From NCBI GenBank assembly GCA_964596875.1, contig CAZQVT010000001.1, positions 42,514 to 106,513 on the forward strand: a stretch of 64,000 nt of DNA. Direction: 5' to 3'. The notes beneath the pieces were generated by a model. That model was not told the DNA's origin and did not search any database. It saw nothing but the letters and a program-made list of their open reading frames with translations. The DNA comes from an uncultured Candidatus Saccharibacteria bacterium. Its GTDB lineage: Bacteria; Patescibacteriota; Minisyncoccia; Phycocordibacterales; DATDWN01. Below, in pieces: positions 39,599 to 55,335 of the stretch. The translations under genes and the position numbers were made by a program. Numbering within the stretch: the first letter of the stretch is position 1; every line of letters begins with the position of its first letter.

Positions 39599-39618
39599 GC
39601 TGTGTGAGCTCGCCACGT

Positions 39619-39864: not shown

Positions 39865-39916
39865 ATTGGGCCTCCAACGAAGTATTATGCAATAGTATCA
39901 AATATATTGCAAGTAA

Positions 39917-41922: not shown

Positions 41923-42315
41923 ATGTTAAAAATACGATTACAACGAGTAGGAAGAAAGCACGAACCATCATTTCGTCTAGTTCTTACTGACTCAAAAAAC
42001 TCAACAAAAAGTGGTAGATACCTAGAAACACTAGGAAACTATGATGCAAGAAGAGGCGAGAAGTCAGAATTCAAAAATGACAGAATCACTTACTGGGTTT
42101 CAAAGGGAGCACAACTTTCAGGAACAGTTCACAACTTACTAATAGACAAAAAAGTAGTTTCAGGAAAGAAAATAAACGTTCTTCCTCTTAAAAAGGCAAT
42201 CGTAAAAGACGCCCCAGCAGAAGCACCAGTAGCAGAGGCCCCAGCACCTGCGGCAGAAGTAGTAGCAGAAGCACCAGCTGAAGCTCCAGCAGTCGAAGAA
42301 ACTCCAGCACAATAG
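41923..42315 (+). CDS. rpsP: 30S ribosomal protein S16 with Ala/Pro/Glu-rich C-terminal extension
   Basis: MLKIRLQRVGRKHEPSFRLVLTDS classic bS16. Confidence 0.8.
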   Translation: MLKIRLQRVGRKHEPSFRLVLTDSKNSTKSGRYLETLGNYDARRGEKSEFKNDRITYWVSKGAQLSGTVHNLLIDKKVVSGKKINVLPLKKAIVKDAPAEAPVAEAPAPAAEVVAEAPAEAPAVEETPAQ

Positions 42316-42404
42316 TCATTTTGGTCTAACAACTTGTTTGACCGACCTCTATATAGATTATAGAATTATTACTGTAGGACTTTAAAATTAACTGAATTGA
42401 ACAT

Positions 42405-42722
42405 ATGGAAACTGACGTAAAATTTTTGGAATTTGTAGTAAAAGCGCTAGTTGAAAAGCCAGAAGACGTAAAGATAAATAGAACAGTAGACGAAATGGGA
42501 GTTCTCATGACTCTAGATGTAAACAAGGACGATATGGGTAAAATCATCGGCCGAGAGGGAAACACAGCAAAGGCCATCAGAACACTTTTGCGAGTAGTAG
42601 GAATGAAAAACAACGCTCGAGTAAACCTAAAGATAAACGAGCCAGCAGATATGATGGGGGAGGCGAAAAGTACGAGTTCATCTAAATCTCTAGACGAGGC
42701 GATGAACGATCTAAACCTTTAA
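42405..42722 (+). CDS. KH-domain RNA-binding protein (KhpA/YlqC-like)
   Basis: KIIGREGNTAKAIRTLLRVVG KH GxxG-type motif; follows rpsP as in many bacteria. Confidence 0.7.
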   Translation: METDVKFLEFVVKALVEKPEDVKINRTVDEMGVLMTLDVNKDDMGKIIGREGNTAKAIRTLLRVVGMKNNARVNLKINEPADMMGEAKSTSSSKSLDEAMNDLNL

Positions 42723-42758
42723 TTTAAGCGAACTCCTTTGTTAAAACAAAAAAATACT

Positions 42759-42800
42759 TCTCACCTTACTAGTATGTAAGGCTCGAAGTATTTTTTTTGT
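42759..42800 (+). repeat. R4 hairpin module CTCACCTTACtagtaTGTAAGGCTCGAAGTATTTTTTTT
   Basis: same module as 25286..25320 with conserved flanking boxes. Confidence 0.5.
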
Positions 42801-42878
42801 TTTGCCTCGGATTTCATCTTAAATAAAAGGTTTAGATTTACATTTTACTAAATAGTATTTTTATGTTATAAAAATGCT

Positions 42879-43529
42879 ATGAATTTCCATATAATCAGTT
42901 TGTTCCCAAACGCCTTTGACTCATACCTAAATGAGTCTATTATTTCGCGGGCGATAGAAGACAAGAAAATAAAAGTTTCATTCTATAACCCTAGGGACTT
43001 TTCTGACGACAAATGGAAAAGAGTAGACCAGAAACCATACAGTGGAGGACCAGGCATGGTTATCCAAGCATTGCCAACTATAAAAGCGATAGCAAAATCT
43101 ATTTCTAAAATAAAAAATAAAAAAGCGAAAATAAAAATCGTTTGGTTTACTCCTGGAGGAAAACAGTTCGATACCGCGTATGCAAAAAAGGTTTCTAAAA
43201 CATATACAGATATTATTTTTGTGTGTGGTAGATACGAGGGGATAGATAGTCGAGTGAAAAAAGTTTTTAAGGTGGATGAAGTTTCTGTTGGCCCTTTTGT
43301 TTTAACTGGTGGGGAGTTGCCGGCTATGATTATGCTCGACTGCGTTGCGCGACAAGTGAAGGGGGTATTGGGGAACTTTGATTCGCTAGAAGAGTCTAGG
43401 GTATCGAGCCATGATGTGTATACTCGTCCAGAAGTTTTTGAATACAAAAATAAAAAATACAAAGTACCACGTGTGTTACTTTCAGGTAATCACGCTGAAA
43501 TTGAAAAGTGGAAGAAGAGTAGATCATAA
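42879..43529 (+). CDS. trmD: tRNA (guanine37-N1)-methyltransferase
   Basis: MNFHIISLFPNAFDSYLNESIISRA, SPOUT knot motifs; 216 aa. Confidence 0.85.
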   Translation: MNFHIISLFPNAFDSYLNESIISRAIEDKKIKVSFYNPRDFSDDKWKRVDQKPYSGGPGMVIQALPTIKAIAKSISKIKNKKAKIKIVWFTPGGKQFDTAYAKKVSKTYTDIIFVCGRYEGIDSRVKKVFKVDEVSVGPFVLTGGELPAMIMLDCVARQVKGVLGNFDSLEESRVSSHDVYTRPEVFEYKNKKYKVPRVLLSGNHAEIEKWKKSRS

Positions 43530-43549
43530 AAAGTTTTGTTTTCCGGTGA

Positions 43550-43639
43550 GAAGTGATGTTATCACTTCGCAAGACCTTGCCAAATTTTTCTAGAACGAAG
43601 TGATTAGAAAAATAGACAAGGTGTACTGTTCCTGTAAGG
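43550..43639 (+). repeat. repeat family R2/R3 copy c: GAAGTGATgttaTCACTTC-GCAAGACCTT ... AAGGTGTACTGTTCCTGTAAGG
   Basis: shared modules with copies a,b,d,e. Confidence 0.6.
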
Positions 43640-43732
43640 AAATCATAAAAAAATAGAGGAGTGGAAACTAGGTAAAGGCAAAAAATAACTCCTACAGAAA
43701 AACCCGCGAGTGCGACAGAGTTTCTCTGCCGC

Positions 43733-43912
43733 CTACGCGGGCTGGAGCTCGTTGACCTTTCTGGTCTTGAGCCGTGCTTTTGCTTGTTTTCTTTTGACCT
43801 CACTCATCATCCTTTCTTGCTGTATCTCTGCGATGATTGCGTCGAGTCTGCCGAGCATTCGTGCTCCCCAGAGTCTTTCGCGGATGATCTGCTCTTTTGC
43901 TTGTCGAGTCAT
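43733..43912 (-). CDS. small highly basic coiled-coil protein, high-GC island gene (59 aa; below ORF-track threshold)
   Basis: AAGGAGGccatATG RBS, TTGACA-17-TATATT promoter 43925-43960 (minus), hairpin terminator 43700-43735; MTRQAKEQIIRERLWGARMLGRLDAIIAEIQQERMMSEVKRKQAKARLKTRKVNELQPA. Confidence 0.45.
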   Translation of the reverse strand: MTRQAKEQIIRERLWGARMLGRLDAIIAEIQQERMMSEVKRKQAKARLKTRKVNELQPA

Positions 43913-44037
43913 ATGGCCTCCTTATCCACCTGCAATTAATATACAGTAAATACTGTATATTGTCAAATTTGAGAAAGGCCGCGCTCCTCTCGGTTCGCGG
44001 CCTTGTTCGGGTGGGGGACTTTCTCGTCCCCGCCGGT

Positions 44038-44421
44038 TTACTTCTTTCGCTTCTTCCTCGCTTTCTGCTTGCGCGCACTTCCGATAGTAGTGCTGCTACC
44101 CAGCCACCGTTTGGGACTGAGTTTGGCGAGTTCCATCACGCACATGAAGGCGTAGATGGTGACATCGCCCACATGCTTGAACGAGTCGAGGTCCCAACAC
44201 TTGACCGCCTTGGCCATCGCCCCGACTGTCTTGTACTGGGAGTAGTGTCTCTTCACCACCTTGTTCAGGCGGGTGACGGCGGAGGTGTGTCCGCACTCGA
44301 GCTTCTGGTTCACCTGCCGGCGAGTCAGTTTGAACTCTCCGATGGTTAGAACCACCGCGTTCTGTCTGTCGGCGTAGGCCTTGCTTACCGGATGTCTGAA
44401 ACCCTCACTCTTCCTCGGCAT
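44038..44421 (-). CDS. hypothetical basic protein with KKRKK C-terminus, high-GC island gene (127 aa)
   Basis: CGGAGGGcatcaacgaATG RBS; consensus promoter TTGACA-aatatgttgtatgtgc-TATAAT at 44430-44480 (minus); GC3-rich. Confidence 0.45.
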   Translation of the reverse strand: MPRKSEGFRHPVSKAYADRQNAVVLTIGEFKLTRRQVNQKLECGHTSAVTRLNKVVKRHYSQYKTVGAMAKAVKCWDLDSFKHVGDVTIYAFMCVMELAKLSPKRWLGSSTTIGSARKQKARKKRKK

Positions 44422-44524
44422 TCGTTGATGCCCTCCGATTAGTATTATAGCACATACAACATATTTGTCAAGTATAAAATATAACAAATTGTTTTGAATT
44501 TTTTATATCTGTTACAATGTTTCA

Positions 44525-46219
44525 ATGCTTCAGTCACAGGCTTTAGATATATTAAAAATGGGTAAAAATGTTTTTCTAACTGGCCCTGCCGGTTCAGGAA
44601 AAACTTTTGTTATAAACGAGTATGTAAAATATTTGCGTGAACACGCTGTGGATGTTGCCGTGACTGCATCTACTGGTATCGCTGCCACACATATCGGTGG
44701 TATGACTATACACTCGTGGTCTGGTCTTGGAATACGCGACACTTTGACTGACTATGACATAGACGACCTCATGGAGCGACAATATTTGTATAAAAGATTT
44801 AACAAGACAAAAGTTTTGATTATTGACGAGGTTTCAATGCTACACAACTTTCGTTTAGACCTTATTGAGTGGATCTGTCGACAGATGAAGCATAGCGAAA
44901 AACCTTTTGGTGGTATGCAGATTATTTTGTGTGGAGATTTTTTTCAGTTGCCACCAGTAACTCGTAGTGGAAACGTAAGATTTACAGACGAACCTTTTGG
45001 ACAAACAGTAGAGTCTGAGTTTGCATACAAGTCACAGAGTTTTCTTTCATCGCAGTTTGTTGTTTGTTATCTAGAGGAACAGCACAGACAAAAAGACAAT
45101 ACATATTTGGGTATCCTAAACCAGATTCGTGAAAACAGAGTTTCGTCTCGAACAATGGAACTTTTGAAATCTAGAATAAACGTCGCAACCGATGTTTCTG
45201 GAAACGCGACTAGGCTCTATACCCACAATATAGATGTAGATGCTGTAAACAAAAAACATCTAGATCTAATTTCTGCAACATCAAAAAAGTTTTATATGAA
45301 AAGTCATGGCTCTGGAGGTTTGGCAGAAACTTTGAAAAAAAGTTGTCTGTCGCCAGAAGAGTTGGAACTAAAAGTCGGCGCGAAAGTAATGTTTACAAAA
45401 AACCATCCCGAAGGTTTGTATGTAAATGGAACTTTGGGTGTTGTAAAAGAGTTCAACTCTTTTGGTGAGCCTGTAGTGGTTACGACAGGTGGTATGGAAA
45501 TATCTGTGGTTGAACAGTCTTGGAAAATAGAAGAAGAAGGAAAAGTAAAAGCAGAAATCTCCCAGTATCCTTTGCGTTTGGCGTGGGCGATAACAGTTCA
45601 CAAAAGTCAGGGAATGTCACTCGACAGTATGGAAGTAGATCTTTCAAAATCTTTTGTAAAAGGTATGGGCTATGTGGCATTGTCTCGTGTTCGTTCACTA
45701 GAAGGCATGAAACTTTTAGGTTTCAACGAAATGTCGCTTTTGGTAGACCCTGAAGTTTTGGATATGGATAAAAAGTTCAGAGACCTTTCGGTAGACGCTG
45801 TAAACGACTTGAAAGATTTAAGTAAAAAACAAATAGTGGAAGCACAGAGTGCGTGGCTTAAAAAAATCGAACCAGAAGAAAAAGTAAAAATAAAAAAGAA
45901 AGAAAAAGAACTGAAAAAAAGTACTCACGAGATAACTTTAGAAATGCTAGAAAATGAAACTCCTTTGTCGCAGATAGCAAAAGCTCGTGGTGTAAAGGAG
46001 GAAACCATAGTTTCACATATAGAAGACTTGAAGGCAGAAAACAAATGTCCAGATGTGAACTATCTAAAAAGGGAACTAAAGCGTGGGGAACTAGACGACA
46101 TTTTGGATGCTTTTCATGACTGCAACACAACTACTCTTGCTCCCGTTTACAACTACCTAATTCGCAAAAAGAAGAAGCCGAATTATCTAAAGATACGTAT
46201 AGCCCGCCTATTCCTGTAA
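44525..46219 (+). CDS. PIF1/RecD-family ATP-dependent DNA helicase with C-terminal HTH-like domain
   Basis: GKNVFLTGPAGSGKTF Walker A, IIDEVSMLH Walker B, ITVHKSQGMSLD motif typical of PIF1/RecD2 helicases; 564 aa. Confidence 0.75.
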   Translation: MLQSQALDILKMGKNVFLTGPAGSGKTFVINEYVKYLREHAVDVAVTASTGIAATHIGGMTIHSWSGLGIRDTLTDYDIDDLMERQYLYKRFNKTKVLIIDEVSMLHNFRLDLIEWICRQMKHSEKPFGGMQIILCGDFFQLPPVTRSGNVRFTDEPFGQTVESEFAYKSQSFLSSQFVVCYLEEQHRQKDNTYLGILNQIRENRVSSRTMELLKSRINVATDVSGNATRLYTHNIDVDAVNKKHLDLISATSKKFYMKSHGSGGLAETLKKSCLSPEELELKVGAKVMFTKNHPEGLYVNGTLGVVKEFNSFGEPVVVTTGGMEISVVEQSWKIEEEGKVKAEISQYPLRLAWAITVHKSQGMSLDSMEVDLSKSFVKGMGYVALSRVRSLEGMKLLGFNEMSLLVDPEVLDMDKKFRDLSVDAVNDLKDLSKKQIVEAQSAWLKKIEPEEKVKIKKKEKELKKSTHEITLEMLENETPLSQIAKARGVKEETIVSHIEDLKAENKCPDVNYLKRELKRGELDDILDAFHDCNTTTLAPVYNYLIRKKKKPNYLKIRIARLFL

Positions 46220-46376: not shown

Positions 46377-47342
46377 ATGAAAAAGGTATACCTTCTCCCT
46401 CTACTTTTACTTTTTGTATATGGTGTGGTTTCTGAACCACTACACTTTGATAAGTATTTTGAAAAAAGTTACCCGAGTGTTTTAAACTTTGGTGATGTTA
46501 TGTTTGACCGGGGTGTGAGAAACATAATAGAGAACCGAGGTCGCGACCCTTTTGAATACATTAAAAAAGACTTGGGACAATTTTCCGACTACGATATAAA
46601 AATAGTAAACCTCGAAGGTCCAATAGTTACTATGGACCGGGCGCTATGTCAGCAAAAAGCATACAACTTTCAGTTTGCAGACGACGCGACGGACAGACTA
46701 AAAAGTATTGGTATAAACATGGTAAACATAGCCAACAACCATAGCTACGACTGTTACGAACAAGGTTTTGAAAATACAAAAAAAGTTTTGGCGAAGGTGG
46801 GGATAGACTACATGGGCGATAGTGTTTTGGAAAAAAGTTTTGTAGTAAAAGTAGTAGATGGTAAAGAAATTGCCTTTGTTGGGATAGATGAAACTGTTGC
46901 GCGAGTTCCTGTGTCAGAGTTTTACTCTCTTGTGAAAAAATTAAAATCCGAAAATGATTTGGTGGTGGTAGATATACACTGGGGTACAGAATACATTTTG
47001 ACATCAAACCAAAACCAAAAAGACATTGCACACATACTAGTAGAAAGTGGTGCAGATGTTATTTTTGGTCACCACCCACATGTAGTAGAGGAACTGGAAG
47101 TGTACAAAGGCAAGGCAATATTTTATTCACTTGGGAACTTTGTTTTTGACCAAAACTTTGGCGACACTATGGTGGGCCTAGGTGTTGGCGCGCAGTTTAA
47201 GGAAGACAAAACTGTTTTCACTTTGTACCCGTTCAATATAAAAGTATTTGCTCCTGATTTAATGAAAGAAGAAGAAAAAGAAAGTTTTTGTAAAAAGTTT
47301 CTGGCAGGGTTTAATGCTCATGGTTGCAGTTTAACTATTTGA
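46377..47342 (+). CDS. CapA/PGA_cap-family metallophosphatase-like protein (poly-gamma-glutamate capsule synthesis family)
   Basis: signal/TM N-terminus, NFGDVMFDRG, ANNHSYD, HWGTEY, GHHPHV motifs; 321 aa. Confidence 0.65.
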   Translation: MKKVYLLPLLLLFVYGVVSEPLHFDKYFEKSYPSVLNFGDVMFDRGVRNIIENRGRDPFEYIKKDLGQFSDYDIKIVNLEGPIVTMDRALCQQKAYNFQFADDATDRLKSIGINMVNIANNHSYDCYEQGFENTKKVLAKVGIDYMGDSVLEKSFVVKVVDGKEIAFVGIDETVARVPVSEFYSLVKKLKSENDLVVVDIHWGTEYILTSNQNQKDIAHILVESGADVIFGHHPHVVEELEVYKGKAIFYSLGNFVFDQNFGDTMVGLGVGAQFKEDKTVFTLYPFNIKVFAPDLMKEEEKESFCKKFLAGFNAHGCSLTI

Positions 47343-47425
47343 TAAAATATATAAAGTGTGTTATTGTAACTCTCGCTACTTTTACGACATAAAGTCGATA
47401 CTTGCTAGCATGGAGTTCTTTCTCA

Positions 47426-48295
47426 ATGATGAAGCGTCTGCTCCTCCCCGTCTTCACCGCGATCCTCATGATGCCGTCGCTCGGCTTCGCTCAGGGCACC
47501 GTCGTCTTCTCGAACCTGCCGTCGCCCACGCCGGGCAACATCCCGTCCTTGGGCTACCAGTGCTGCTCGGTCTCCGAGTTCGGCGACCGCGTGCACCTCG
47601 AGGCCGACACGCCCCGGCGTGCCAGCAGCGCGACGGTTCTGATGTCGTCGTGGTCGCTCCACTCGAACTACCCGACGATGTCCGCGGCCGGCTACAAGCA
47701 CCCGATCACGCTCGCGGTCTACGCGAACGACGCGGCGGCCCTGGCGCATTCGCCCTTGGCAACCGTGACCCAGATGATGGACATCCCGTGGCGGCCCGAG
47801 GCCGACCCGACCTGTCCCGGCGGGACGGCATGGCGCGCAACGAACGGCCAGTGCTACAACGGCATGGCCTTCACGCTCACGTTCGACCTGCGCAGTCTGA
47901 ACCTCACGCTCCCGGACGAGTTCGTCTGGGGTGTGGCGTACAACACGCAGACCTGGGGCTACAACCCGCTCGGCGTCGCCGGCCCGTACGAGTCGCTCAA
48001 CGTCGGCACGACCGCTTCGGCGCCGTCAGTCGGCGTCGATGTGGATCCGGACGTGGCGTACGTCAACTACGCCGTGGCGGGGTTCTACTCCGACCTCGGC
48101 GCGGGTGGCACGAACACCTTCCGCGCCGATACGGCATGGACGGGATTCGCTCCCTCGGCGGAGTTCACCACGGTTGCCGTTCCGGCGACCACCGGTGAGT
48201 GCAAGAACGGAGCCTGGCAGAACCTGGTCCGGCGTGACTTCACGCCGTTCAAGAACCAGGGAGCCTGCGTCTCCTACGTCAACACCGGCAAGTAG
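47426..48295 (+). CDS. secreted hypothetical protein, very high-GC island gene (~65% GC, 289 aa)
   Basis: signal peptide MMKRLLLPVFTAILMMPSLGFAQG; extreme GC3 bias (ccg/ggc/acg/gtc); followed by CGGCGGTCCtcagGGACCGCCGCTTTTTTAT terminator. Confidence 0.5.
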   Translation: MMKRLLLPVFTAILMMPSLGFAQGTVVFSNLPSPTPGNIPSLGYQCCSVSEFGDRVHLEADTPRRASSATVLMSSWSLHSNYPTMSAAGYKHPITLAVYANDAAALAHSPLATVTQMMDIPWRPEADPTCPGGTAWRATNGQCYNGMAFTLTFDLRSLNLTLPDEFVWGVAYNTQTWGYNPLGVAGPYESLNVGTTASAPSVGVDVDPDVAYVNYAVAGFYSDLGAGGTNTFRADTAWTGFAPSAEFTTVAVPATTGECKNGAWQNLVRRDFTPFKNQGACVSYVNTGK

Positions 48296-48321
48296 CCGGC
48301 AACAACACCAGTCATCGGGAA

Positions 48322-48357
48322 GATGTCCGGCGGTCCTCAGGGACCGCCGCTTTTTTA
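48322..48357 (+). terminator. rho-independent terminator
   Basis: GTCCGGCGGTCCTCAGGGACCGCCGCTTTTTTATAAA. Confidence 0.7.
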
Positions 48358-48401
48358 TAAAATAGGAAATGAATTTGTGTTGTATTTATTATATAGAACC
48401 C

Positions 48402-48430
48402 ATAGTGTCAAAGAGTCTCTTTGACACTAT
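48402..48430. repeat. perfect 29-nt palindrome ATAGTGTCAAAGAGtcTCTTTGACACTAT (REP-like) at 3' end of transposase gene
   Basis: self-complementary; second copy of core at 49041..49063. Confidence 0.8.
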
Positions 48431-49031
48431 AGTTCAAGGTTTCATGCTTAAAATCATTAATATTTTTAAATTTATTAAGAACAAAATCAGTTGTTATGAA
48501 TGAAAGGTTTCTGTTTTTTAAATAATCATTGTAACTACTCCAAATATATTTATAAGGGTTATCAGTAATTTTATCTTTTACTGGATTCATATGAATATAT
48601 GCAGTTGTCCATAAGAGTTGCGAGTCACTTTCAATCATTGTTGCTTTAAAACAGTCCTGAAATAGATGCCCAATTTTTTTGTATTTTTGATTTATGTACT
48701 TTGAATAACTCGTACAGACTTTCGAAACCAATTTTGAAATGGGCACGTCACTTAACTGTTCTATTAATAAATGAAAATGATTTGGCATTAGACAAAATGC
48801 GTGAATCTGAAATTGATTCTTGGCACCATAAATCCTAATTCTTGAAAATGGAACCGTAGTTAGATTATTTTTATTTAATTCTTTTGAATCTATTCCGAGA
48901 GCGAGCCCAAGTCTATATAGAAATGCTCTATAATCTTGTGGGTCTAAAAATATTCTTTCTTTATTATTTCCTCTATTGTAAATATGAGCTACTATACCCT
49001 GATCAAAATTTTTATAGTCCCTTTTGTTCAT
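48408..49031 (-). mobile_element. IS200/IS605-family Y1 (HuH) transposase, REP-associated tyrosine transposase (RAYT)-like
   Basis: HuH motif LMPNHFHLLIE and catalytic-Tyr motif TAYIHMNPV (RAYT YIHxNPV); 207 aa; flanked by palindromes at both ends. Confidence 0.7.
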
Positions 49032-49040
49032 GAAATGAGT

Positions 49041-49063
49041 ATGTCAAAGAGTCTCTTTGACAT
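49041..49063. repeat. 23-nt palindrome ATGTCAAAGAGtcTCTTTGACAT (REP-like) 10 nt upstream of transposase start
   Basis: same core TGTCAAAGAGTCTCTTTGACA as 48405..48427. Confidence 0.8.
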
Positions 49064-49162
49064 CAAGTTAGATAAAAATTGGGAAATGAAATAATTAAAT
49101 GTAAAGTGTACCTTTTGGGAAATAAGAGTAGTATACCGGCTAATACTAATTAACATAAATAC

Positions 49163-51988
49163 ATGAAGAATCTTCGAATCGCGATGTTTCTTTCAGTGGT
49201 TTCTTTGTCTGCTTATTTCTATTTTTACAATACAGTTTCAGCAGCTATAGTGTTTGACCAATCACCAACAGATCTTACAGGTCAAACTTTAAGTGACGCA
49301 GTATTGAACAATGGATACTTAACTAGTTTTACATGTACCGGCAGTTTAAGTTGTGGAGTATCTGGTCAAACTATTTATAATGTTGGTGTTTGGATAAAAA
49401 AGGTTGGTAATCCAGACGATGTTCGTTTGCAAGTTGGTGGAAGTTATAACGATCGAGACTTTGGTACTACCACTTTATCTAATATTGTTCCGGCGAGTTC
49501 TATTTCTGATACAGAGTATAATTTTAAATGGTTTTATTTTCCGGAAGGTGTTGTAATAGGAAATCGTTTTGATTTAGATCAGTTCTTCTTTTTTAAGTAT
49601 GCAAATAGTATAGATATAGACAGGGTCACTGACTACTACATGGTTTTAAAAAATGATGTAAATAATTATTCAGCTCAAGCACAGTGGTGTAGAAAATATC
49701 AGGGTTGCTACTCATCAGTATTTTTCTGGAAAATGGATGATTCTAGCATTGATCTATCTACGACCACTCCTCCAATTTGCACATTAAATTGTAGTTCGAG
49801 TGTGATGTTTTTCCCAGGAGTTATGGGTAGTAAACTTTATGATGCAAATGGAGAGTTGTGGGTTTCAAGATCTGGAACAGAACAAGCAAAACTTTTACTG
49901 GATTCTGGTGGCAAAAGTGTAAATACTGTTTTTACAAAAGATGATACTCAAAATATAAGTATCAACGAATCAGAGACTGGTTTAGTTGATGAAGTTTTTG
50001 GATCAAATATTTATAACTCTTTTATTGATAGTCTTAGAGGTTGGAAACAAGATGGAACAGTCTCAGATTATGCTTTTATACCTTATGACTGGAGACTTTC
50101 GCTAGATAATATTATAACTAACGGAGCATCTACAACTGCCGGGGATTTATCATATACTAACAGCCAGAATTTTTCTGAAAGTTATATTTTGAAAAAGTTG
50201 GAAGAACTACAGAAAAATTCTGAGTCAGGAAAAGTTACACTTATTGGGCATTCTAATGGAGGTTTGGTTATAAAAGCACTGGTTCAAAAACTAAAAGATA
50301 CAAATAACCCCCTGTATAACAAGATAGATAAAATAATTTTAGTTGCTGTGCCACAGGTTGGAACTCCAGATGCAGTGGCGAGTTTGCTACATGGAACAAG
50401 TCTTGGAAAAGGTTTTGTTATGAGAAATGAAAGACTACGTGATCTGGCAAAAAACATGCCAACGATGTATAACCTGTTGCCGTCAGATGGGTATTTTTCA
50501 ATGATAGACCCAAATGTGCCAAACGATAAGATAGTTTCATTCCAAAATGATCCGGCATTTTCTGCTCAACTAAATCAATACGGAGTTTATGTGTCTAATC
50601 CACTTGAATTCAAAAACTATATTTTAGGAAGTGATGGCAGAAGTGTCCCGTCGTATTCTGATACAGATAAGCCAATTATAGGAAACTCAATTTTATACGA
50701 TAATGCGAAAACGGTGCACAGCGTTTTGGATAACTGGTCGCCAGCATCTACAACAAAAGTTATTCAAGTTGCTGGTTGGGGAAGCGAAACAATATCTGGG
50801 ATTAGTTATAAAAAATGTTACGACATGAGCATCGAGGGTTACCATAAATGTCCAAAAATAAATAACGTTGTTGATGGCGACGGTACAGTCGTTGTTCCAA
50901 GTGCACTATGGATGCCTGTTTCTAATTCAAATATTGAAAGATGGTGGGTAGATTTGGCAAGTTACGACACCATATCAAATGTTGAAAGAGAGCATAGAGA
51001 TATTTTAGAAGTTAAAAATCTAAGGGATTTTATTAAATCTGAAATTAAAAATGAAGTCTGGAATGATTCGAACGAAATAGTTGTGGGTAACACATCTACA
51101 CTTGTTCCAGACGGAGAATATTTACACTATACATTGCATTCACCACTTTCACTTGGTGTTTACGATAACCTTGGAAGATATACAGGACTAGACCAGGTAA
51201 CTGGAGATATTGTAGAAGACATACCAAATTCAAAATATGTAGTTATTGGAGATACTCAGTTTGTATCTGTTCCGGAAAGTATTTCAGGACAAGTTAGACT
51301 TCGAGGTGTTAGTGATGGTGTGTTTACTCTAGACATTGAGAAACAAACTGGTAATACAGTTGTAGATGCTGTAACTATAGGTGGAGTGCCAAGTTTGACT
51401 CAAACAGTTGCGTATCTAGATATAAACTCAAATCTTGCAAGTACAACTCTAAATATAGATAAAAACGGTGATGGAGTATTTGAAAAGCAAATAAATACAA
51501 ATGGTAAAAGTGAAGTGTTGTATGACGATGTGCCACCAGAAATTTCTGTATCATATTCAACAACTACAAAAAATATTATTTTTGGAGGCATAGATAAAAA
51601 TTTGGCTGGAGTTACTGTTTCTACTAGTACAGTTACTGCTTACGATGAGCAGGGCAATAAAACAACACTCTATTTCTCTGGTCTGAAAAATGAGAAAAGT
51701 GAATCAAAAGTGGTATTAAGGAAAATATCTAGAAATGGCAAGGAGGAGTCACTAAAAAATATTGAAATAAAGTTCGAGGTAGATATGAAAAAAAACGGAA
51801 TAATAGCCGAATTTAAATCAGAAGTTGAAGCTGGTGACAGTGAGTTATTTAGTTTGAAGTATGAACAAGAAAAGGGTGTAACTAAGATAAGGGAAAAAAC
51901 ATCAACTGGAATAGTTAGTGTTAGTAGGCCAGGACTTGTAATAGAAAAAATTATAACCATTGGAACGGGATTCAGGTTTGAATACTAG
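49163..51988 (+). CDS. large secreted/membrane-anchored protein with alpha/beta-hydrolase (lipase/esterase GHSxG) domain
   Basis: N-terminal TM anchor; LIGHSNGGLVIKALV nucleophile-elbow motif; 941 aa. Confidence 0.5.
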   Translation: MKNLRIAMFLSVVSLSAYFYFYNTVSAAIVFDQSPTDLTGQTLSDAVLNNGYLTSFTCTGSLSCGVSGQTIYNVGVWIKKVGNPDDVRLQVGGSYNDRDFGTTTLSNIVPASSISDTEYNFKWFYFPEGVVIGNRFDLDQFFFFKYANSIDIDRVTDYYMVLKNDVNNYSAQAQWCRKYQGCYSSVFFWKMDDSSIDLSTTTPPICTLNCSSSVMFFPGVMGSKLYDANGELWVSRSGTEQAKLLLDSGGKSVNTVFTKDDTQNISINESETGLVDEVFGSNIYNSFIDSLRGWKQDGTVSDYAFIPYDWRLSLDNIITNGASTTAGDLSYTNSQNFSESYILKKLEELQKNSESGKVTLIGHSNGGLVIKALVQKLKDTNNPLYNKIDKIILVAVPQVGTPDAVASLLHGTSLGKGFVMRNERLRDLAKNMPTMYNLLPSDGYFSMIDPNVPNDKIVSFQNDPAFSAQLNQYGVYVSNPLEFKNYILGSDGRSVPSYSDTDKPIIGNSILYDNAKTVHSVLDNWSPASTTKVIQVAGWGSETISGISYKKCYDMSIEGYHKCPKINNVVDGDGTVVVPSALWMPVSNSNIERWWVDLASYDTISNVEREHRDILEVKNLRDFIKSEIKNEVWNDSNEIVVGNTSTLVPDGEYLHYTLHSPLSLGVYDNLGRYTGLDQVTGDIVEDIPNSKYVVIGDTQFVSVPESISGQVRLRGVSDGVFTLDIEKQTGNTVVDAVTIGGVPSLTQTVAYLDINSNLASTTLNIDKNGDGVFEKQINTNGKSEVLYDDVPPEISVSYSTTTKNIIFGGIDKNLAGVTVSTSTVTAYDEQGNKTTLYFSGLKNEKSESKVVLRKISRNGKEESLKNIEIKFEVDMKKNGIIAEFKSEVEAGDSELFSLKYEQEKGVTKIREKTSTGIVSVSRPGLVIEKIITIGTGFRFEY

Positions 51989-52010
51989 TTTAGGGTGGTA
52001 TAATTAATAT

Positions 52011-52379
52011 ATGAAAACAAATAGATTAAAATACTCATTTATTTTTTTATTAGTCATCGCTATTTCTTATTATATAAATATTGAAACGAACACAAGACTT
52101 TTAAGAAAACTTAGCGAATTCACATTCTGGATGAGTTTTTCAGTTTTTGTCATTTCAGTTATATCTGTCTTTATAAAAGAAAACGCATATCTTGCCTGGA
52201 AAAAGTTTACAAATTATTATCTAGCATTTGCAGTCCTAGTTATACTAATAACTCCTACATCAACTCATGGTATGGATTTCTTTCCGATAGTTAAAGAAAC
52301 AGTCACTGTAGCATTGTCTATTTTGTATGCTGGAATTTCACTTCCTCTTATCGTTTACAAATCATTCAAAATGGACTAG
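52011..52379 (+). CDS. hypothetical membrane protein (3-4 TM)
   Basis: 122-aa hydrophobic ORF. Confidence 0.4.
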   Translation: MKTNRLKYSFIFLLVIAISYYINIETNTRLLRKLSEFTFWMSFSVFVISVISVFIKENAYLAWKKFTNYYLAFAVLVILITPTSTHGMDFFPIVKETVTVALSILYAGISLPLIVYKSFKMD

Positions 52380-52389
52380 GGTTAGATTG

Positions 52390-53019
52390 ATGAAGGATTT
52401 TGATGCAAAAACATATAAGGATTCGAAGGGTGGTTTTAATAATGAAGATGAGAATCTTTTGATTTTATTGTTGAGTGAAAATGAAGACAAGAAAACTATT
52501 TTGGATGTTGGTTGTGGAGATGGTTTGCTAACACAAAAGATAAAAAATAATTTCCCGGGTTCAGATATAGTCGGTATAGATAATTCTGTAGAGCAAATAG
52601 ATATGGCGAAAAGTTCTGGAGCCAGTGTTGTTTTTGAAGTTGCGGATATTTCTGAATACAGGCCAGATAAAAAATTTGACGCAGTCTACTCTTTTTATGC
52701 ATTTCCACATATGCCTAAAAGCAAAATATCAAAGGCACTTGCTAATGTAAAAAGCTTACTAAAAGAGGGTGGGAAGTTTTACCTTTTTACAAACATATGC
52801 CTTTTTGATACATCTATTGCAACACCAGAAGACCAGGAGGCGTGTGATGTTGTCTTTTTAGAAAATTGGCCATCTCAAATAAACCTTACTTCTGTGGAAG
52901 AAATGAGAGAACTGCTTAAGATAAATAGTTTAAGTATTGTTTCTGAAAAGCGTTTACAAACTGGTGCAAAAGTGAAAGATTATGGAGATATGGTTTCTTG
53001 GCTTTTTATTCTAAATTAA
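52390..53019 (+). CDS. class I SAM-dependent methyltransferase
   Basis: ILDVGCGDGLLT motif I, acidic motif II; ORF track starts 52327 inside previous gene, ATG 52390 preferred. Confidence 0.6.
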   Translation: MKDFDAKTYKDSKGGFNNEDENLLILLLSENEDKKTILDVGCGDGLLTQKIKNNFPGSDIVGIDNSVEQIDMAKSSGASVVFEVADISEYRPDKKFDAVYSFYAFPHMPKSKISKALANVKSLLKEGGKFYLFTNICLFDTSIATPEDQEACDVVFLENWPSQINLTSVEEMRELLKINSLSIVSEKRLQTGAKVKDYGDMVSWLFILN

Positions 53020-53023
53020 AGAT

Positions 53024-53470
53024 ATGAACAATTCTGAAAATAAAGTGTTTTTCTATGAAAGAGAGTTTTACCCTTTTTCAAACTTCTCATCATTTGCTTT
53101 AGAGTGGAAGGGGTATTTATATATGACTTCAGAGCATGCTTACCAAACAGAAAAGTTTTTAGATGTAGAAATAATTAAGGAGATAAGAGAAACAAAGTCC
53201 GCTCATGAAGTTTTTGTGCTTTCTAGAAAATACGAAGACAAGGTCCGACCAGACTGGATGGATATTAGAGTTTCGGTAATGGAGGAAATACTAAGAGAAA
53301 AAATAAGACAGCATGAGTATGTTAGGCAGAAACTTCTAGAAACCGGAGATAGGGAAATAATAGAGGATTCTCACAGAGATGACTTTTGGGGTTGGGGACC
53401 AAATAAAGATGGTCAAAATAATTTAGGAAAAATCTGGATGAAGTTGCGGGGAGAACTAAAGAATAAATAA
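53024..53470 (+). CDS. NADAR-domain protein (YbiA/DUF1768 family)
   Basis: FYPFSNFS...EWKGYLYMTSEHAYQTEKF...DFWGWG matches the NADAR fold signature; 148 aa. Confidence 0.65.
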   Translation: MNNSENKVFFYEREFYPFSNFSSFALEWKGYLYMTSEHAYQTEKFLDVEIIKEIRETKSAHEVFVLSRKYEDKVRPDWMDIRVSVMEEILREKIRQHEYVRQKLLETGDREIIEDSHRDDFWGWGPNKDGQNNLGKIWMKLRGELKNK

Positions 53471-53471
53471 T

Positions 53472-53837
53472 ATGAAAAAGGGAAACCTGAATACCCAGCT
53501 GGCGGGGTCAAAAAGAAATGGTTCAATTATAAACAAACTTGGTAGACTTGGTGATAGTCATAACCCAATTTTTAATACAAAAAATATTCCTCCAATAGAG
53601 GTGCGATGGATTAGGTTAAATAAGGGTGATGAAAAAACCATCCCGCATAAACATGAAGAAATACAAACACTCATTACCTTGATCCGTGGCAGGCACGATA
53701 TAACAATAAATAAAAAGACAAAAGTAATCTTACAAAAAGAAGGCGACTACGTTTTTATTGAGCCGGGTGATTTGCATTGCTGGAAAACAAAGAAAAATAC
53801 TTTACTTCTGGTCGTGAGATGGAAAGTCAAAAAATAA
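53472..53837 (+). CDS. small cupin-like beta-barrel protein
   Basis: HKHEE...GDYVFIEPGDLHCW pattern consistent with cupin motifs; 121 aa. Confidence 0.35.
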   Translation: MKKGNLNTQLAGSKRNGSIINKLGRLGDSHNPIFNTKNIPPIEVRWIRLNKGDEKTIPHKHEEIQTLITLIRGRHDITINKKTKVILQKEGDYVFIEPGDLHCWKTKKNTLLLVVRWKVKK

Positions 53838-53838
53838 A

Positions 53839-54453
53839 ATGAAAATTGAAAAGAGAAGTATTGCGGAAAATATCTACTTGCTGAGGTTTGAAAATCAGAC
53901 GGAACTTGCCTCTACTTTTTTGCGGTTTCAGGAACACTACGAGTCGCCAGAGTTTCGGGGAAAGTTTTTTACATTAGACGAATACAAAAAATGGTACACA
54001 CAAGCTAGGGGAGACTTTACCTACTATAGCGACTGGTCTGGTTTCAATATTCCTTCACATATCCTAAAGCCTTTTCTGGAAGGAAAGTTTGACCCACTTA
54101 CGGACAAGGAGAAAATTTTCCTAGAATATTTTACCGACGTGCCTCACCCTTTTTATATTATTGGACTTTCGGGGGATACGGATACTGAAAAAACAAAACT
54201 AACTCTAGATCATGAAACAGCGCATGGGATGTACTACACCAAACCAGAATACAGAAAAAAAGTAGATGAGGTTTTGAAAAAATATGACCTTTCAAAAATA
54301 AAAGAATGGCTACGTTCAATGAGCGGTTACCATGAGTCTGTTTTGGACGACGAGTCGCATGCCTATACCCTTTTTGGTTTTGAAAAGATAATAGAAAAAA
54401 TCCCCGAAGGTATGAAGGAGGAACTAGACGCCATTTTCCAGGAGTTTAAATAG
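53839..54453 (+). CDS. hypothetical protein with HExxH (DHETAHGMYY) putative metallopeptidase motif
   Basis: 204 aa; 1-nt spacing from upstream gene (operon). Confidence 0.3.
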   Translation: MKIEKRSIAENIYLLRFENQTELASTFLRFQEHYESPEFRGKFFTLDEYKKWYTQARGDFTYYSDWSGFNIPSHILKPFLEGKFDPLTDKEKIFLEYFTDVPHPFYIIGLSGDTDTEKTKLTLDHETAHGMYYTKPEYRKKVDEVLKKYDLSKIKEWLRSMSGYHESVLDDESHAYTLFGFEKIIEKIPEGMKEELDAIFQEFK

Positions 54454-54502
54454 GTTTGATTTTGGGGAAGTTTTGTGGGTAAATACTGTGTGGGGAGGTG
54501 GC

Positions 54503-54721
54503 ATGGGGCTCATCGCTAATCTCGTTTCGTGGTCTGAGGCTGTGTCGTGGGTGTGGCAGGTGTTGCCCGGATGGGCACAGAAGTACCTGATCTTCCACAT
54601 CTGCTGTGTGGCGGCGTGTACCATCTGGGTCTGTAACAGCTACCGAACGACTCGCAGGTTGCCTCAGAACTACAAAGTTCTGGGTGACCCGTACAAGGTG
54701 CAGCTTCCGAACGTGAAGTAG
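54503..54721 (+). CDS. small hydrophobic protein, high-GC island gene (72 aa)
   Basis: GGGGAGGtggcATG RBS; ORF track start 54473 lacks RBS; GC-rich versus flanks. Confidence 0.4.
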   Translation: MGLIANLVSWSEAVSWVWQVLPGWAQKYLIFHICCVAACTIWVCNSYRTTRRLPQNYKVLGDPYKVQLPNVK

Positions 54722-55005
54722 TCTCGGCCTCGACTGTTGTTGTGCAAAAGGTGTGTGTCGTTACGGCACCGCCTTTTTGTTATACAAAAATAAAAAGTGA
54801 TATAATCTAGATATGACAAACAGAACAACAAAAAATAGTTTTACTACATTAAACACAGGTAGCAAAAAAAGTGGAAAGAGTATGAGTATAAAACCGAAAA
54901 TGAAAGGTAAGGCACCACGACCAAGCAGAACTAACGGATAAAATAAAAACTTGTGATATAATATTTTGTATAAATTATTAAAATTATTATTTAACTAAAT
55001 AAAAT

Positions 55006-55335
55006 ATGGTAGAAAAAAATATGTGTGAAGTTTGCGGTTCTGGAGATGGACGATGCGGTAGTTGTGGGAACATGTGTGGTTACCGAGGAAACCATATGTT
55101 GCGATGGTTACTAGGTATTATTATCATCACTTGGATCTTCTGTATTGGAATGAAGTTCGGTGAGTTCAAGGCGCAGGTATACGGTGGTGGATATGGAAAC
55201 CATATGTATTTCAAGGCTTCTGGAATGCCTATGATGGGCACAACAGGATGGGGAAATGTAGACTATACTGTTTCTACTCAAGCAGTGCCATCTATGATGA
55301 CAACTGGTGCTGTAAAGGTAATAAAAGCACAATAG
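55006..55335 (+). CDS. Cys-rich N-terminus + single TM small protein, hypothetical
   Basis: MCEVCGSGDGRCGSCGNMCGY (7 Cys in 21 aa) then TM helix; TGaTATAAT promoter at 54952-54960. Confidence 0.4.
   Translation: MVEKNMCEVCGSGDGRCGSCGNMCGYRGNHMLRWLLGIIIITWIFCIGMKFGEFKAQVYGGGYGNHMYFKASGMPMMGTTGWGNVDYTVSTQAVPSMMTTGAVKVIKAQ

What the first reader, a model, noticed from the sequence alone, without database searches (positions are those of the whole stretch)
47400..48360. ~65% GC gene for a 289-aa secreted protein embedded in ~35% GC surroundings
Seen directly: 47426..48295 has a clear signal peptide (MMKRLLLPVFTAILMMPSLGFAQG) and almost exclusively G/C-ending codons. It is followed by a strong terminator (CGGCGGTCCtcagGGACCGCCG-CTTTTTT). 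The mature protein is Gly/Thr/Ala/Pro-rich with paired Cys (QCCSVSEF, PTCPGG, QCYNG, GECKNG...GACVSY). The preceding promoter-like sequence (TTGATA...agtgtgTTATTGT) is AT-rich like the host. This is the largest and most compositionally extreme of the micro-islands. A secreted disulfide-bonded protein acquired from a high-GC organism could be a surface/host-interaction factor.
Basis: partly seen in the sequence, partly recalled or inferred. Interest (0 to 1): 0.55.

Follow-up and report, generated by a model that had tools for sequence, protein, structure and literature searches.

The report
GC-rich secreted-protein cassette in Parcubacteria
A low-GC, ultra-small groundwater bacterium (Parcubacteria) carries a gene for a secreted binding-type protein that came long ago from high-GC soil bacteria, and the gene has kept its foreign, GC-rich codons even though its silent sites have turned over as much as those of its neighbours.

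Summary
Window 47426..48295 (+) encodes a 289-aa protein with 67% GC and 91% G/C-ending codons. The other 40 large ORFs in the window have GC3 of 0.21-0.41. The gene has a Sec-type signal peptide, six cysteines, a promoter-like site and a strong terminator.

It is a promoter-ORF-terminator cassette in a Parcubacteria chromosome. The protein belongs to an unannotated family of about 600 members, mainly from Acidobacteriota, Gemmatimonadota, Chloroflexota and Actinomycetota. The AlphaFold model (pLDDT 91) is a jelly-roll beta-sandwich resembling lectin, CBM and phage receptor-binding modules, followed by a small disulfide-closed C-terminal domain.

The transfer is not recent. Five Parcubacteria lineages carry the same cassette, and where flanks are known it sits in the same slot. 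These copies share an AT-rich promoter, 5'UTR and terminator, and they group together (NJ bootstrap 89%). Five close relatives lack the gene, so it is accessory.

Between the window and its relative C7867-003, silent sites are as scrambled as in 14 flanking genes. Even so, GC at four-fold sites stays at 0.91 and 0.84, where neutral decay predicts 0.54 or less. Two unrelated cassettes in the clade behave the same way. The function (probably surface or host binding) and the force that keeps the GC high are both inferred.

The parts
47339..47367 (+). Sigma-70-type promoter-like site: -35 TTGATA, 17-nt spacer, TG-extended -10 TATTGT. The -35 box overlaps the TGA stop codon of the upstream PGA_cap gene.
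   Evidence: Consensus scan. The homologous TTGATTT...TGTGTTAGAGT sequence lies upstream of the copies in L083, L084, L087 and L001. Promoter activity was not tested.
47368..47425 (+). 5'UTR of about 40% GC, with the Shine-Dalgarno GGAG at 47412-47415 inside the conserved motif TGGAGTTCTTTC.
   Evidence: Conserved in four Parcubacteria copies but absent upstream of the high-GC homologues L086 and L002. A weak hairpin with a few covarying pairs is predicted from only four sequences. No Rfam family matches.
47426..48295 (+). Coding sequence for the 289-aa protein, stop codon included. GC 0.67, GC3 0.91.
   Evidence: There are 604 homologues. dN/dS among the Parcubacteria copies is 0.15-0.27.
47426..47491 (+). 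Sec-type signal peptide, residues 1-22 (MMKRLLLPVFTAILMMPSLGFA). Cleavage is predicted after GFA.
   Evidence: Read from the sequence. N-terminal hydrophobic leaders ending in A-x-A/Q-G occur throughout alignment A1, and some homologues have lipoprotein-type leaders. This stretch has low pLDDT in the model. No signal-peptide predictor was available.
47495..48175 (+). Core jelly-roll beta-sandwich domain, residues about 24-250. It contains the conserved motifs SEFGD and GPYESLNVG and the invariant pair C130/C143.
48191..48292 (+). C-terminal mini-domain, residues about 256-289: CKNGAWQNLVRRDFTPFKNQGACVSYVNTGK. The cysteines C259 and C281 are invariant.
   Evidence: Alignment A1. The model predicts short helices here. 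The same motif ends an unrelated 194-aa secreted protein on contig L137.
48296..48358 (+). GC-rich 3'UTR and intrinsic terminator. The hairpin is at 48328-48349 (9 bp, 8 of them G-C) and is followed by CTTTTTT.
   Evidence: Terminator scan. A hairpin at the same position, with changes that keep the pairing, is present in L001, L083, L084 and L087.
46377..47342 (+). Upstream host gene for a PGA_cap (CapA-like) protein. It marks the left side of the insertion slot. GC 0.375.
   Evidence: Pfam PF09587, E = 1.8e-56. It is syntenic in L001, L083 and many relatives.
48400..49031 (-). IS200-like Y1 transposase gene (48408..49031) with a hairpin of 15-bp stem at 48400-48432. It opens a window-specific block of about 6.1 kb (to about 54453) that separates the cassette from the next conserved gene.
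   Evidence: Pfam PF01797, E = 1.6e-12. Hairpin. In L001, L084 and L090 the orthologue of window gene 55006..55335 follows the slot directly. This element is not part of the conserved cassette.

Best explanation
The feature is an accessory gene cassette (host-type promoter, 5'UTR, ORF, GC-rich intrinsic terminator) in the chromosome of a ~39% GC Parcubacterium related to 'Parcubacteria bacterium C7867-003'.

Origin. The ORF was captured once, long ago, from a high-GC soil or groundwater bacterium, most likely of the Acidobacteriota. It came under a Parcubacterial promoter. Since then it has been inherited or exchanged only within this Parcubacteria clade, where it is kept in some lineages and lost or replaced in others.

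Product. The protein is exported by the Sec pathway and its leader is cleaved after GFA. It folds into a jelly-roll beta-sandwich of about 225 aa stabilised by the C130-C143 disulfide, followed by a small C259-C281-closed C-terminal domain. Most likely it acts outside the cell as a binding module, for a glycan or a surface ligand on a partner cell or matrix, rather than as an enzyme.

Composition. The G/C-ending codons are not a leftover of recent transfer. They are actively maintained in the window lineage. The best-fitting cause is selection acting on the coding region itself, meaning selection on codon choice or on mRNA properties.

Shown here: foreign origin, single origin of the cassette, accessory status, purifying selection, the fold, and the lack of amelioration. 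Inferred: the donor phylum, secretion, the binding function, and the force that keeps GC high.
For: Composition and anatomy.

Family. There are 604 homologues of about 290 aa and none has a Pfam domain. A scan of species-representative genomes found 449 relatives. The top four hits (61-65% identity) are Acidobacteriota, and the gene has the native GC of its surroundings there.

Single origin. The copies in the window, L001, L083, L084 and L087 all lie in AT-rich flanks. They share an AT-rich promoter, 5'UTR, 3'UTR and terminator that the high-GC homologues lack. They are monophyletic in 89 of 100 NJ bootstraps. Synteny with RNB-S16-KH-TrmD-PIF1-PGA_cap is shown. The gene-tree order (window, L001) then L083 matches the PIF1 tree.

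Accessory status. The slot lacks the gene in L090, L093, L094, L140 and L141.

Functional constraint. dN/dS is 0.15-0.27.

No amelioration. The 1084 four-fold sites in the 14 flanking orthologues show identity 0.463 (normalised 0.18), GC4 of 0.17 and 0.21, and S/W class retention of 0.08. The 146 four-fold sites in the target show identity 0.507 (normalised 0.19) and GC4 of 0.91 and 0.84. Neutral relaxation predicts at most 0.42-0.54. On the window branch the polarised changes are S>W 4-6, W>S 4-7 and S<>S 18-19. The window copy's GC3 of 0.91 exceeds that of every sampled high-GC homologue (0.75-0.83). The GC shift coincides with the start codon and the terminator.
Against: No experiment or predictor supports secretion or binding. 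Foldseek finds no solved structure at E below 1e-3, with TM-scores of about 0.2-0.3, so the fold match is only at the level of architecture.

The many conserved polar residues (E51, D54, R64, H92, R123, D127, N192) could equally belong to an active site.

The phylogeny is neighbour-joining only, and the nearest high-GC sequences are unnamed metagenome proteins. The donor phylum is therefore approximate.

Only three lineages have both the gene and a species-tree marker, so the congruence of the two trees is weak evidence.

Another cassette in the same region, cassette A, moved between lineages recently. Lateral spread of this cassette is therefore plausible too.

The L083 copy is decaying (GC4 of about 0.6; S>W 19, W>S 0), and L001 shows mild decay. 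Maintenance of GC is therefore not uniform across lineages.

Family members with GC3 of 0.24-0.37 exist in other low-GC genomes. The protein itself therefore does not require GC-rich coding.
Confidence: 0.6

Rival explanations
1. Recent horizontal transfer. The gene arrived from a high-GC donor so recently that it has not yet had time to take on the host's composition.
For: The compositional contrast is extreme and the boundaries are sharp. The gene is absent from several close relatives. Other GC-rich inserts in this genome are lineage-specific.
Against: The best match anywhere is another Parcubacterium at 87% identity, and the next best hits are 73% or lower. Five Parcubacteria copies share a host-type promoter, UTRs and terminator and are monophyletic. 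Four-fold sites between the window and L001 copies are as saturated as in flanking genes, with dS of about 0.9 by NG86.
Confidence: 0.05
2. GC-rich reservoir or repeated replacement. The cassette spends most of its evolutionary time in a GC-rich replicon, either the donor or host bacterium or an unknown GC-rich mobile element. It is repeatedly re-delivered into the same slot, or it gene-converts the resident copy. Chromosomal copies therefore always look fresh.
For: The region is an exchange hot spot. Cassette A (445 aa) in L083 and L092 has normalised four-fold identity of 0.65, while the adjacent PIF1 has 0.01, and the similar block runs exactly from promoter to terminator. Different GC-rich cassettes occupy the same slots in different lineages. 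The target's distribution is patchy. Patescibacteria commonly carry DNA-uptake genes (PMC12455944).
Against: All five copies carry the same AT-rich promoter and 5'UTR, which a GC-rich replicon would not be expected to preserve. No high-GC sequence closer than 69% identity was found among 5.8 billion proteins. The core domain has no hits in viral contigs. The 127-aa cassette at 44038..44421 shows the same GC persistence but has homologues only inside this Parcubacteria clade.
Confidence: 0.17
3. GC-biased gene conversion at a recombination hot spot. Frequent heteroduplex formation in the slot drives third positions toward G or C without any selection on the gene.
For: There is evidence of recombination or exchange in these slots. 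The substitutions conserve GC: S<>S changes are common and S>W and W>S changes are balanced on the window branch. Three unrelated cassettes behave the same way.
Against: The composition switches within about 30 bp at the start codon and after the terminator. The 5'UTR is about 40% GC and the adjacent gene ends stay AT-rich, whereas conversion tracts should blur such edges. A GC4 of 0.9 against 0.2 in flanking genes is far beyond the effects usually attributed to biased conversion in bacteria (my own knowledge of that literature, not checked here).
Confidence: 0.1
4. Functional rival. The protein is a secreted enzyme, for example a glycan-cleaving or glycan-modifying jelly-roll enzyme, rather than a passive binding module.
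For: Many polar residues are invariant or nearly so: E51, D54, R64, H92, R123, D127, N173, E189, N192 and D205. Some relatives are fused to right-handed beta-helix domains typical of polysaccharide-active proteins.
Against: The top structural neighbours are non-catalytic modules: the Cwp84 lectin-like domain, PHR domains, CBMs and phage receptor-binding parts. No catalytic family matches in Pfam, NCBIfam or PDB sequences. The conserved acidic and Asn motifs would also fit a structural Ca2+ site of the kind seen in CBMs (my inference).
Confidence: 0.2
5. Assembly chimera or bin contamination. A fragment from a high-GC genome was joined into a low-GC contig.
For: Only the compositional jump itself.
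Against: The same junctions occur in independent assemblies: NCBI GCA_001189085.1, Logan SRR28423919, SRR31968662/3, ENA ERZ4216102, and SRR12486993/SRR12487046. The GC-rich ORF is driven by an AT-rich promoter that is conserved with it.
Confidence: 0.01

Closest known systems
Horizontally acquired genomic islets or single-gene cassettes in Patescibacteria (CPR), as surveyed in PMC12455944
   Same: A foreign gene sits in a streamlined, low-GC CPR genome. It is accessory, lies in a variable region next to conserved housekeeping genes, and probably arrived through DNA uptake.
   Different: That survey expects old transfers to become invisible through amelioration. This cassette is old, because its silent sites are saturated, yet it is still 67% GC. 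It also has a precise promoter-to-terminator structure that re-uses the same intergenic slot.
Phage 'morons': an extra gene with its own promoter and terminator and atypical composition, inserted between conserved genes (concept recalled from the phage literature, not checked here)
   Same: The architecture is the same: promoter, single ORF and terminator, inserted exactly between two conserved genes. Base composition differs from the surroundings, and presence among relatives is patchy.
   Different: The host replicon is a bacterial chromosome segment with ribosomal-protein S16, TrmD, RNase R-type (RNB) and PIF1-type helicase genes. It is not a prophage. The protein has no significant PHROG match and the core domain has no viral-contig relative.
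Carbohydrate-binding modules and lectin-like jelly-roll domains (CBM32/35/6, the Cwp84 lectin-like domain 4ci7, PHR domains) and phage receptor-binding jelly-rolls
   Different: Sequence identity is 10% or less and no Pfam, NCBIfam or PDB sequence matches. Foldseek E-values are above 1e-3 against PDB. At about 225 aa the domain is larger than typical CBMs, and its ligand is unknown.
Proposed selection or biased conversion favouring G+C at synonymous sites in bacteria (a long-standing debate; recalled from the literature, not checked here)
   Same: Synonymous sites are held G/C-rich against an AT-biased background.
   Different: The effect here is confined to individual accessory cassettes inside a genome whose native genes have GC4 of about 0.2. 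It is a within-genome contrast of 0.7, not a genome-wide shift.

Membership tests
Horizontally transferred gene | Base composition and codon usage unlike the recipient genome | tested here: met
   GC is 0.67 and GC3 is 0.91, against GC3 of 0.21-0.41 in the 40 other large ORFs.
Horizontally transferred gene | Phylogenetic nesting inside a foreign clade, with homologues at native composition there | tested here: met
   The best species-representative hits are Acidobacteriota and the gene's GC equals the flank GC there. The Parcubacteria copies form one clade (bootstrap 89%) inside the family. The tree is neighbour-joining only.
Horizontally transferred gene | Patchy presence among close relatives of the recipient | tested here: met
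   Present in the window, L001, L083, L084 and L087. Absent from the same slot in L090, L093, L094, L140 and L141.
Recently transferred, ameliorating gene | Silent-site divergence between recipient lineages much lower than for native genes, or composition decaying at the native rate | tested here: not met
   Normalised four-fold identity is 0.19 against 0.18 for flanking genes. GC4 is 0.91 and 0.84 against a prediction of 0.54 or less. Decay is seen only in L083.
Phage moron | Own promoter and terminator flanking a single ORF inserted between conserved genes | tested here: met
   Consensus scan plus conservation of both elements in five lineages. Activity was not tested.
Phage moron | Located in a phage or prophage genome | tested here: not met
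   The neighbours are S16, KH, TrmD, RNB, PIF1 and PGA_cap. There is no PHROG hit below E = 0.01 and no viral-contig relative of the core domain.
Integron gene cassette | attC recombination site at the 3' end and an IntI integrase with attI nearby, with cassettes arranged in an array | not tested
   No integrase search was run. The cassettes lie singly in separate intergenic slots, carry their own promoters and end in plain GC hairpins followed by a T-run. This does not resemble an integron array.
Fibronectin type III domain protein (the name given to P0001 in NCBI) | Match to an fn3 profile, or a seven-strand Ig-like domain of about 90 aa | tested here: not met
Carbohydrate-binding module / galactose-binding-domain-like fold | Jelly-roll beta-sandwich architecture | tested here: met
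Carbohydrate-binding module / galactose-binding-domain-like fold | Sequence membership in a described CBM or lectin family | tested here: not met
   No matches in Pfam, NCBIfam or a PDB profile search. Foldseek against PDB gives E above 1e-3.
Carbohydrate-binding module / galactose-binding-domain-like fold | Demonstrated sugar binding or a conserved sugar- or Ca2+-binding site | not testable with these tools
Sec-secreted protein (signal peptidase I substrate) | Positively charged n-region, hydrophobic h-region and a small-x-small cleavage motif | tested here: met
   The leader is MMKR / LLLPVFTAILMMPSL / GFA|QG. Equivalent leaders occur across alignment A1. This rests on inspection only, without a predictor.

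The most novel reading that the evidence does not exclude
This Parcubacteria clade keeps a whole class of accessory cassettes at a GC-rich compositional equilibrium (GC4 of 0.7-0.9) inside genomes whose native genes sit at GC4 of about 0.2. Examples are this secreted protein, a DGQHR-like 318-aa gene, and a clade-restricted 127-aa gene at 44038..44421.

If that is right, some force acts on the coding regions of the cassettes themselves. One possibility is selection for codons that are rare in the host, which would give conditional or slowed translation. Another is selection for GC-rich, stable mRNA. The boldest reading is that the genes are tuned for expression in, or exchange with, a GC-rich partner organism.

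Either way, these would be natural long-term experiments on what sets GC content in bacteria.
Probability: 0.3. Interest if true: 0.75.

Novelty: new variant of a known kind. Interest (0 to 1): 0.55.

Why it matters
Gene transfer into CPR/Patescibacteria is known, and a single foreign secreted protein would be routine. Three things make this case more useful.

1. The protein founds an unannotated but large and well-conserved extracellular family. It has about 600 members across soil phyla and was taken up independently by several CPR lineages. It is therefore a candidate surface or partner-recognition factor for organisms whose hosts are mostly unknown. The Acidobacteriota-like origin gives a testable hint about who those partners are.

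2. The cassette is old, yet it has not drifted toward the host's composition. This contradicts the standard amelioration expectation, and the same is seen in two unrelated cassettes. It offers a clean within-genome system for the long-running question of whether selection or biased conversion acts on G+C content.

3. The same intergenic slots hold different promoter-to-terminator cassettes in different lineages, and one of them was exchanged recently. This points to a cassette-exchange mechanism in CPR genomes that has not been described.

Tried and rejected
- Sequence annotation led nowhere. Pfam, NCBIfam, PHROGs and a PDB profile search gave no usable name for the protein.
- Foldseek against PDB gave no significant match. 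Foldseek against BFVD gave only weak hits to large phage structural proteins, with TM of 0.39 or less.
- The AFDB libraries were not available.
- Rfam found nothing in or around the gene, either at gathering thresholds or at E up to 1. tRNA scanning shows that the micro-islands are not tRNA genes.
- Exact-sequence look-ups of the target and of the window's PIF1 found no record, so the window's own source genome is not in the collection. Only a 2.7-kb Logan contig is identical to part of the window.
- Cluster look-ups gave no organism names for the nearest NCBI-derived homologues.
- Viral-contig scans for the target core, cassette A and the 127-aa island protein found nothing relevant. Cassette B has one 38%-identical viral relative.
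- I rejected the idea that an overlapping reading frame constrains third positions. The long alternative-frame ORFs are expected in any GC-rich sequence. An overlap would conserve specific bases, whereas G<>C turnover is what is seen.
- I rejected the idea that the protein needs GC-rich coding, because relatives with GC3 of 0.24-0.37 exist.
Full report
**1. The observation**

The region reads exactly as described. An ORF at 47426..48295 (+) encodes 289 aa. It is 67% GC, with GC1/2/3 of 0.57/0.53/0.91, and 263 of its 289 codons end in G or C. The genes on either side have GC of 0.29-0.39 and GC3 of 0.24-0.35.

Of 41 non-overlapping ORFs of at least 180 aa in the window, 40 have GC3 of 0.21-0.41. 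This one has 0.90. It is the longest and most GC-rich of the 17 GC-rich stretches in the window. Composition flips within about 30 bp at the start codon and just after the terminator.

A TG-extended sigma-70-like promoter (TTGATA-17-TATTGT, 47339-47367) and a 9-bp GC hairpin followed by a T-run (48328-48349) are found by the consensus scan. The N-terminus has the n/h/c layout of a Sec signal peptide with a GFA|QG site. There are six cysteines.

**2. Whose genome this is**

The flanking genes are RNB-family RNase, ribosomal protein S16, a KH protein, TrmD, a PIF1-type helicase and a PGA_cap protein. They are syntenic with contig LFCM01000018 of 'Parcubacteria bacterium C7867-003', a 38% GC groundwater MAG (PMC4508563), at 56-93% protein identity.

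A 2.7-kb contig assembled independently from SRR12712864 is 100% identical to window 42300-44600.

**3. The protein family**

No Pfam, NCBIfam or PHROG family matches, and no PDB sequence matches. The protein nevertheless has 604 homologues of about 290 aa.

In one genome per species, 449 relatives were found. They come mostly from Acidobacteriota (Vicinamibacterales, Pyrinomonadaceae, Bryobacterales, Thermoanaerobaculia), Gemmatimonadota, Chloroflexota and Actinomycetota, plus some Burkholderiales and several CPR lineages. The four best species-representative hits (61-65% identity) are Acidobacteriota. In those genomes the gene has the same GC as its surroundings.

Sixty aligned members show strongly conserved motifs (SEFGD, IPWRPEADP, GPYESLNVG). 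C130/C143 and C259/C281 are invariant, while the vicinal C46-C47 pair is optional.

**4. Structure**

AlphaFold2, run on that alignment, gives a confident model (mean pLDDT 90.9, pTM 0.85). It shows a beta-sandwich spanning residues about 25-250 and a short helical C-terminal piece.

The NCBI name of the closest homologue, 'fibronectin type III domain protein', is not supported.

In other organisms the core module is one domain of larger secreted proteins. Its partners there are PKD/Big_9 repeats, right-handed beta-helices, LysM, thrombospondin-type repeats or collagen-like repeats. The C-terminal motif CKNGxW...FKNQGxC(V/I)S(Y/F)V also closes an unrelated secreted protein.

Taken together, this points to an extracellular binding module. 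That is an inference.

**5. One cassette, one origin**

The closest homologue (87% identity) is in C7867-003, at the same place downstream of PGA_cap, and is itself 63% GC in 35% GC surroundings. Three further lineages carry the gene in AT-rich flanks: L083, L084/85 and L087-89.

All these copies share an AT-rich promoter (TTGATTT...TGTGTTAGAGT), a 5'UTR ending in TGGAGTTCTTTCAC-ATG, a related 3'UTR and a terminator hairpin that keeps its pairing through sequence changes. In L001 only part of this upstream region remains. High-GC homologues have unrelated flanks.

The five copies are monophyletic in 89 of 100 NJ bootstraps. dN/dS is 0.15-0.27.

The C7867-003 copy has a deletion that fuses the promoter directly to about codon 15. 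This removes the 5'UTR, the start codon and most of the signal peptide.

**6. It is accessory**

Forty-seven metagenome loci carrying the orthologous PIF1 gene were retrieved, and none contains the gene. In L090, L093, L094, L140 and L141 the slot is covered and holds something else or nothing.

In the PIF1 tree these lineages interleave with the carriers. L090 is 93% identical to L001, and L094 is 91% identical to L083. Either the cassette was lost several times, or it moves laterally within the clade.

**7. The unexpected part: no amelioration**

Between the window and C7867-003, 1084 four-fold sites in 14 flanking orthologues are 46.3% identical, against 34.5% expected from composition (normalised 0.18). 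Their G/C-versus-A/T state is almost fully randomised, with a retention of 0.08 (CI 0.02-0.15). GC4 is 0.17 and 0.21.

The cassette's 146 four-fold sites are just as scrambled: identity 50.7% against 38.8% by chance, normalised 0.19, class retention 0.10. Yet GC4 is 0.91 and 0.84.

Under the flank regime, even a 100%-GC ancestor should now be at 0.42-0.54. Of the 72 differences between the two copies, 43 are G<>C.

Polarised changes differ by lineage:

| Branch | S>W | W>S | S<>S |
|---|---|---|---|
| Window | 4-6 | 4-7 | 18-19 |
| L001 | 8-12 | 1-2 | 12-20 |
| L083 | 19 | 0 | 10 |

The window branch is balanced, L001 shows mild decay, and L083 shows clear decay (GC4 of about 0.6).

The window copy's GC3 exceeds that of every high-GC homologue sampled, and its amino-acid composition has not shifted. 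Low-GC versions of the family exist elsewhere, so the protein does not demand GC-rich codons.

**8. The pattern is not unique to this gene**

- A 318-aa DGQHR-like cassette in the PIF1|PGA_cap slot of L093 and L118 has GC4 of 0.71 and 0.76, saturated silent sites and a highly conserved leader.
- A 127-aa gene at window 44038..44421 (-), in the TrmD|PIF1 slot, is also present in L090, L092, L140 and L141. Where measured (window, L090, L092) its GC3 is 0.73-0.79 and its silent sites are saturated. It has only three homologue clusters among 5.8 billion proteins, all in this clade.
- A 445-aa cassette shared by L083 and L092 is 74% identical at four-fold sites, while the adjacent PIF1 is at chance level. 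The similar block runs exactly from promoter to terminator. This shows recent exchange of a whole cassette into the same slot.

**9. Interpretation**

The best-supported account is a single old capture of an Acidobacteriota-type gene under a Parcubacterial promoter. The gene was then kept as an accessory, functional, secreted binding protein. Some force holds its coding region G/C-rich.

The sharp edges at the start codon and terminator, together with the roughly 40% GC 5'UTR, fit selection on the coding region or mRNA better than biased gene conversion. A GC-rich reservoir replicon cannot be excluded. It is hard to reconcile with the conserved AT-rich promoter and with the clade-restricted 127-aa cassette.

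Misassembly and recent transfer are effectively excluded.

**10. Limits**

- No signal-peptide predictor, maximum-likelihood phylogeny or population data were available.
- Model coordinates could not be inspected.
- Only three carrier lineages have species-tree markers.
- The silent-site model is a simple stationary one.
- The function and the GC-maintaining force are inferences.

Noticed in passing
window 44038-44421 (-), island 43951-44444: A 127-aa basic protein gene (GC3 0.77 over the 127-aa CDS) lies in the TrmD|PIF1 slot. It is also present in L090, L092, L140 and L141 at 66-72% identity. GC3 is 0.73-0.79 and silent sites are saturated where measured (window, L090, L092). Only three homologue clusters exist among 5.8 billion proteins, all from this Parcubacteria clade. 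It is a second case of a persistently GC-rich cassette, and this one has no visible high-GC donor.
   Followed up: yes
L083 4640-6150 and L092 7480-9000 (PIF1|PGA_cap slot): A 445-aa GC-rich cassette is 88% identical in protein and 74% identical at four-fold sites between two lineages whose adjacent PIF1 genes are at chance level. The similar block runs exactly from an AT-rich TTGACT..TATAAT promoter to the terminator. This indicates recent lateral exchange of a whole cassette into the same slot.
   Followed up: partly
L093 7301-8257 and L118 8805-9800: A 318-331-aa GC-rich cassette carries a DGQHR-like 'NGQHT' motif (my reading of the sequence). A leader of about 70 nt containing a hairpin is nearly identical between the two lineages, although the silent sites of the gene are saturated. 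One 38%-identical relative lies on a viral contig.
   Followed up: partly
window 6732-6848 and 22529-22650: A GC-rich element of about 120 nt is present twice (77% identity over 126 nt, with a near-identical core CCGTCAAGAACGGGGTGCCTTGACGGA). The first copy is closed by the inverted repeat AATATTTTTCAGAC/GTCTGAAAAATATT and flanked by the direct repeat CTCATTCGTTA. It folds strongly (-44.6 kcal/mol, z = -4.4). No Rfam family matches. It could be a small RNA or a miniature mobile element.
   Followed up: partly
window 6984-7826, 28931-29755, 36653-37237, 39548-39892, 54461-54780, 56866-57180, 61310-61611: Other intergenic GC-rich micro-islands (50-61% GC) carry small ORFs with GC3 of 0.6-0.93, and some have visible AT-rich promoter-like sequences, SD sites and terminators. 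Identified products are a DUF7336/phrog_3002 protein (7528-7715) and an HTH_17-like DNA-binding protein (28957-29160). The 68-aa ORF at 56937-57143 (-) has GC3 of 0.93 and a single known homologue. Apart from short matches at island edges (54461-54780 to L087; 56866-57180 and 61310-61611 to L001), none is found in the L001, L083, L084 or L087 loci held.
   Followed up: partly
L001 9997-10060 (C7867-003 copy of the gene): The promoter is fused directly to about codon 15 of the ORF, so the 5'UTR, start codon and most of the signal peptide are missing. The annotated TTG start is the promoter's -35 box. This is either a recent inactivating deletion or an assembly error.
   Followed up: partly
window 48360-54453: A block of about 6.1 kb with host-like GC lies between the cassette's terminator and the next conserved gene. 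It contains the IS200-like Y1 transposase with its 15-bp-stem hairpin at 48400-48432, a 941-aa LCAT-like alpha/beta hydrolase with a signal peptide, and five further ORFs. In L001, L084 and L090 that conserved gene follows the slot directly.
   Followed up: partly
L001 9735-9945: A further small GC-rich ORF of about 70 aa, with its own terminator, sits immediately upstream of the C7867-003 copy. It follows a NUDIX gene that the window lacks.
   Followed up: no
L010, L014, L032, L042, L047, L056: Other CPR lineages (Patescibacteria AMAZON01, a Minisyncoccia MAG, Saccharibacteria, WWE3) hold more distant members of the same protein family (38-51% identity). None of the window's flanking genes was detected next to them in the 4-7 kb held. 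In Saccharibacteria the domain is fused to LysM and a membrane anchor. Their GC is near or moderately above that of the flanks. This suggests repeated uptake of the module by CPR bacteria.
   Followed up: partly
window 47339-47344 / 47340-47342: The -35 box of the cassette promoter overlaps the TGA stop codon of the upstream PGA_cap gene. In the window, therefore, no spacer remains between the host gene and the cassette. L001 and L083 have extra genes there.
   Followed up: no
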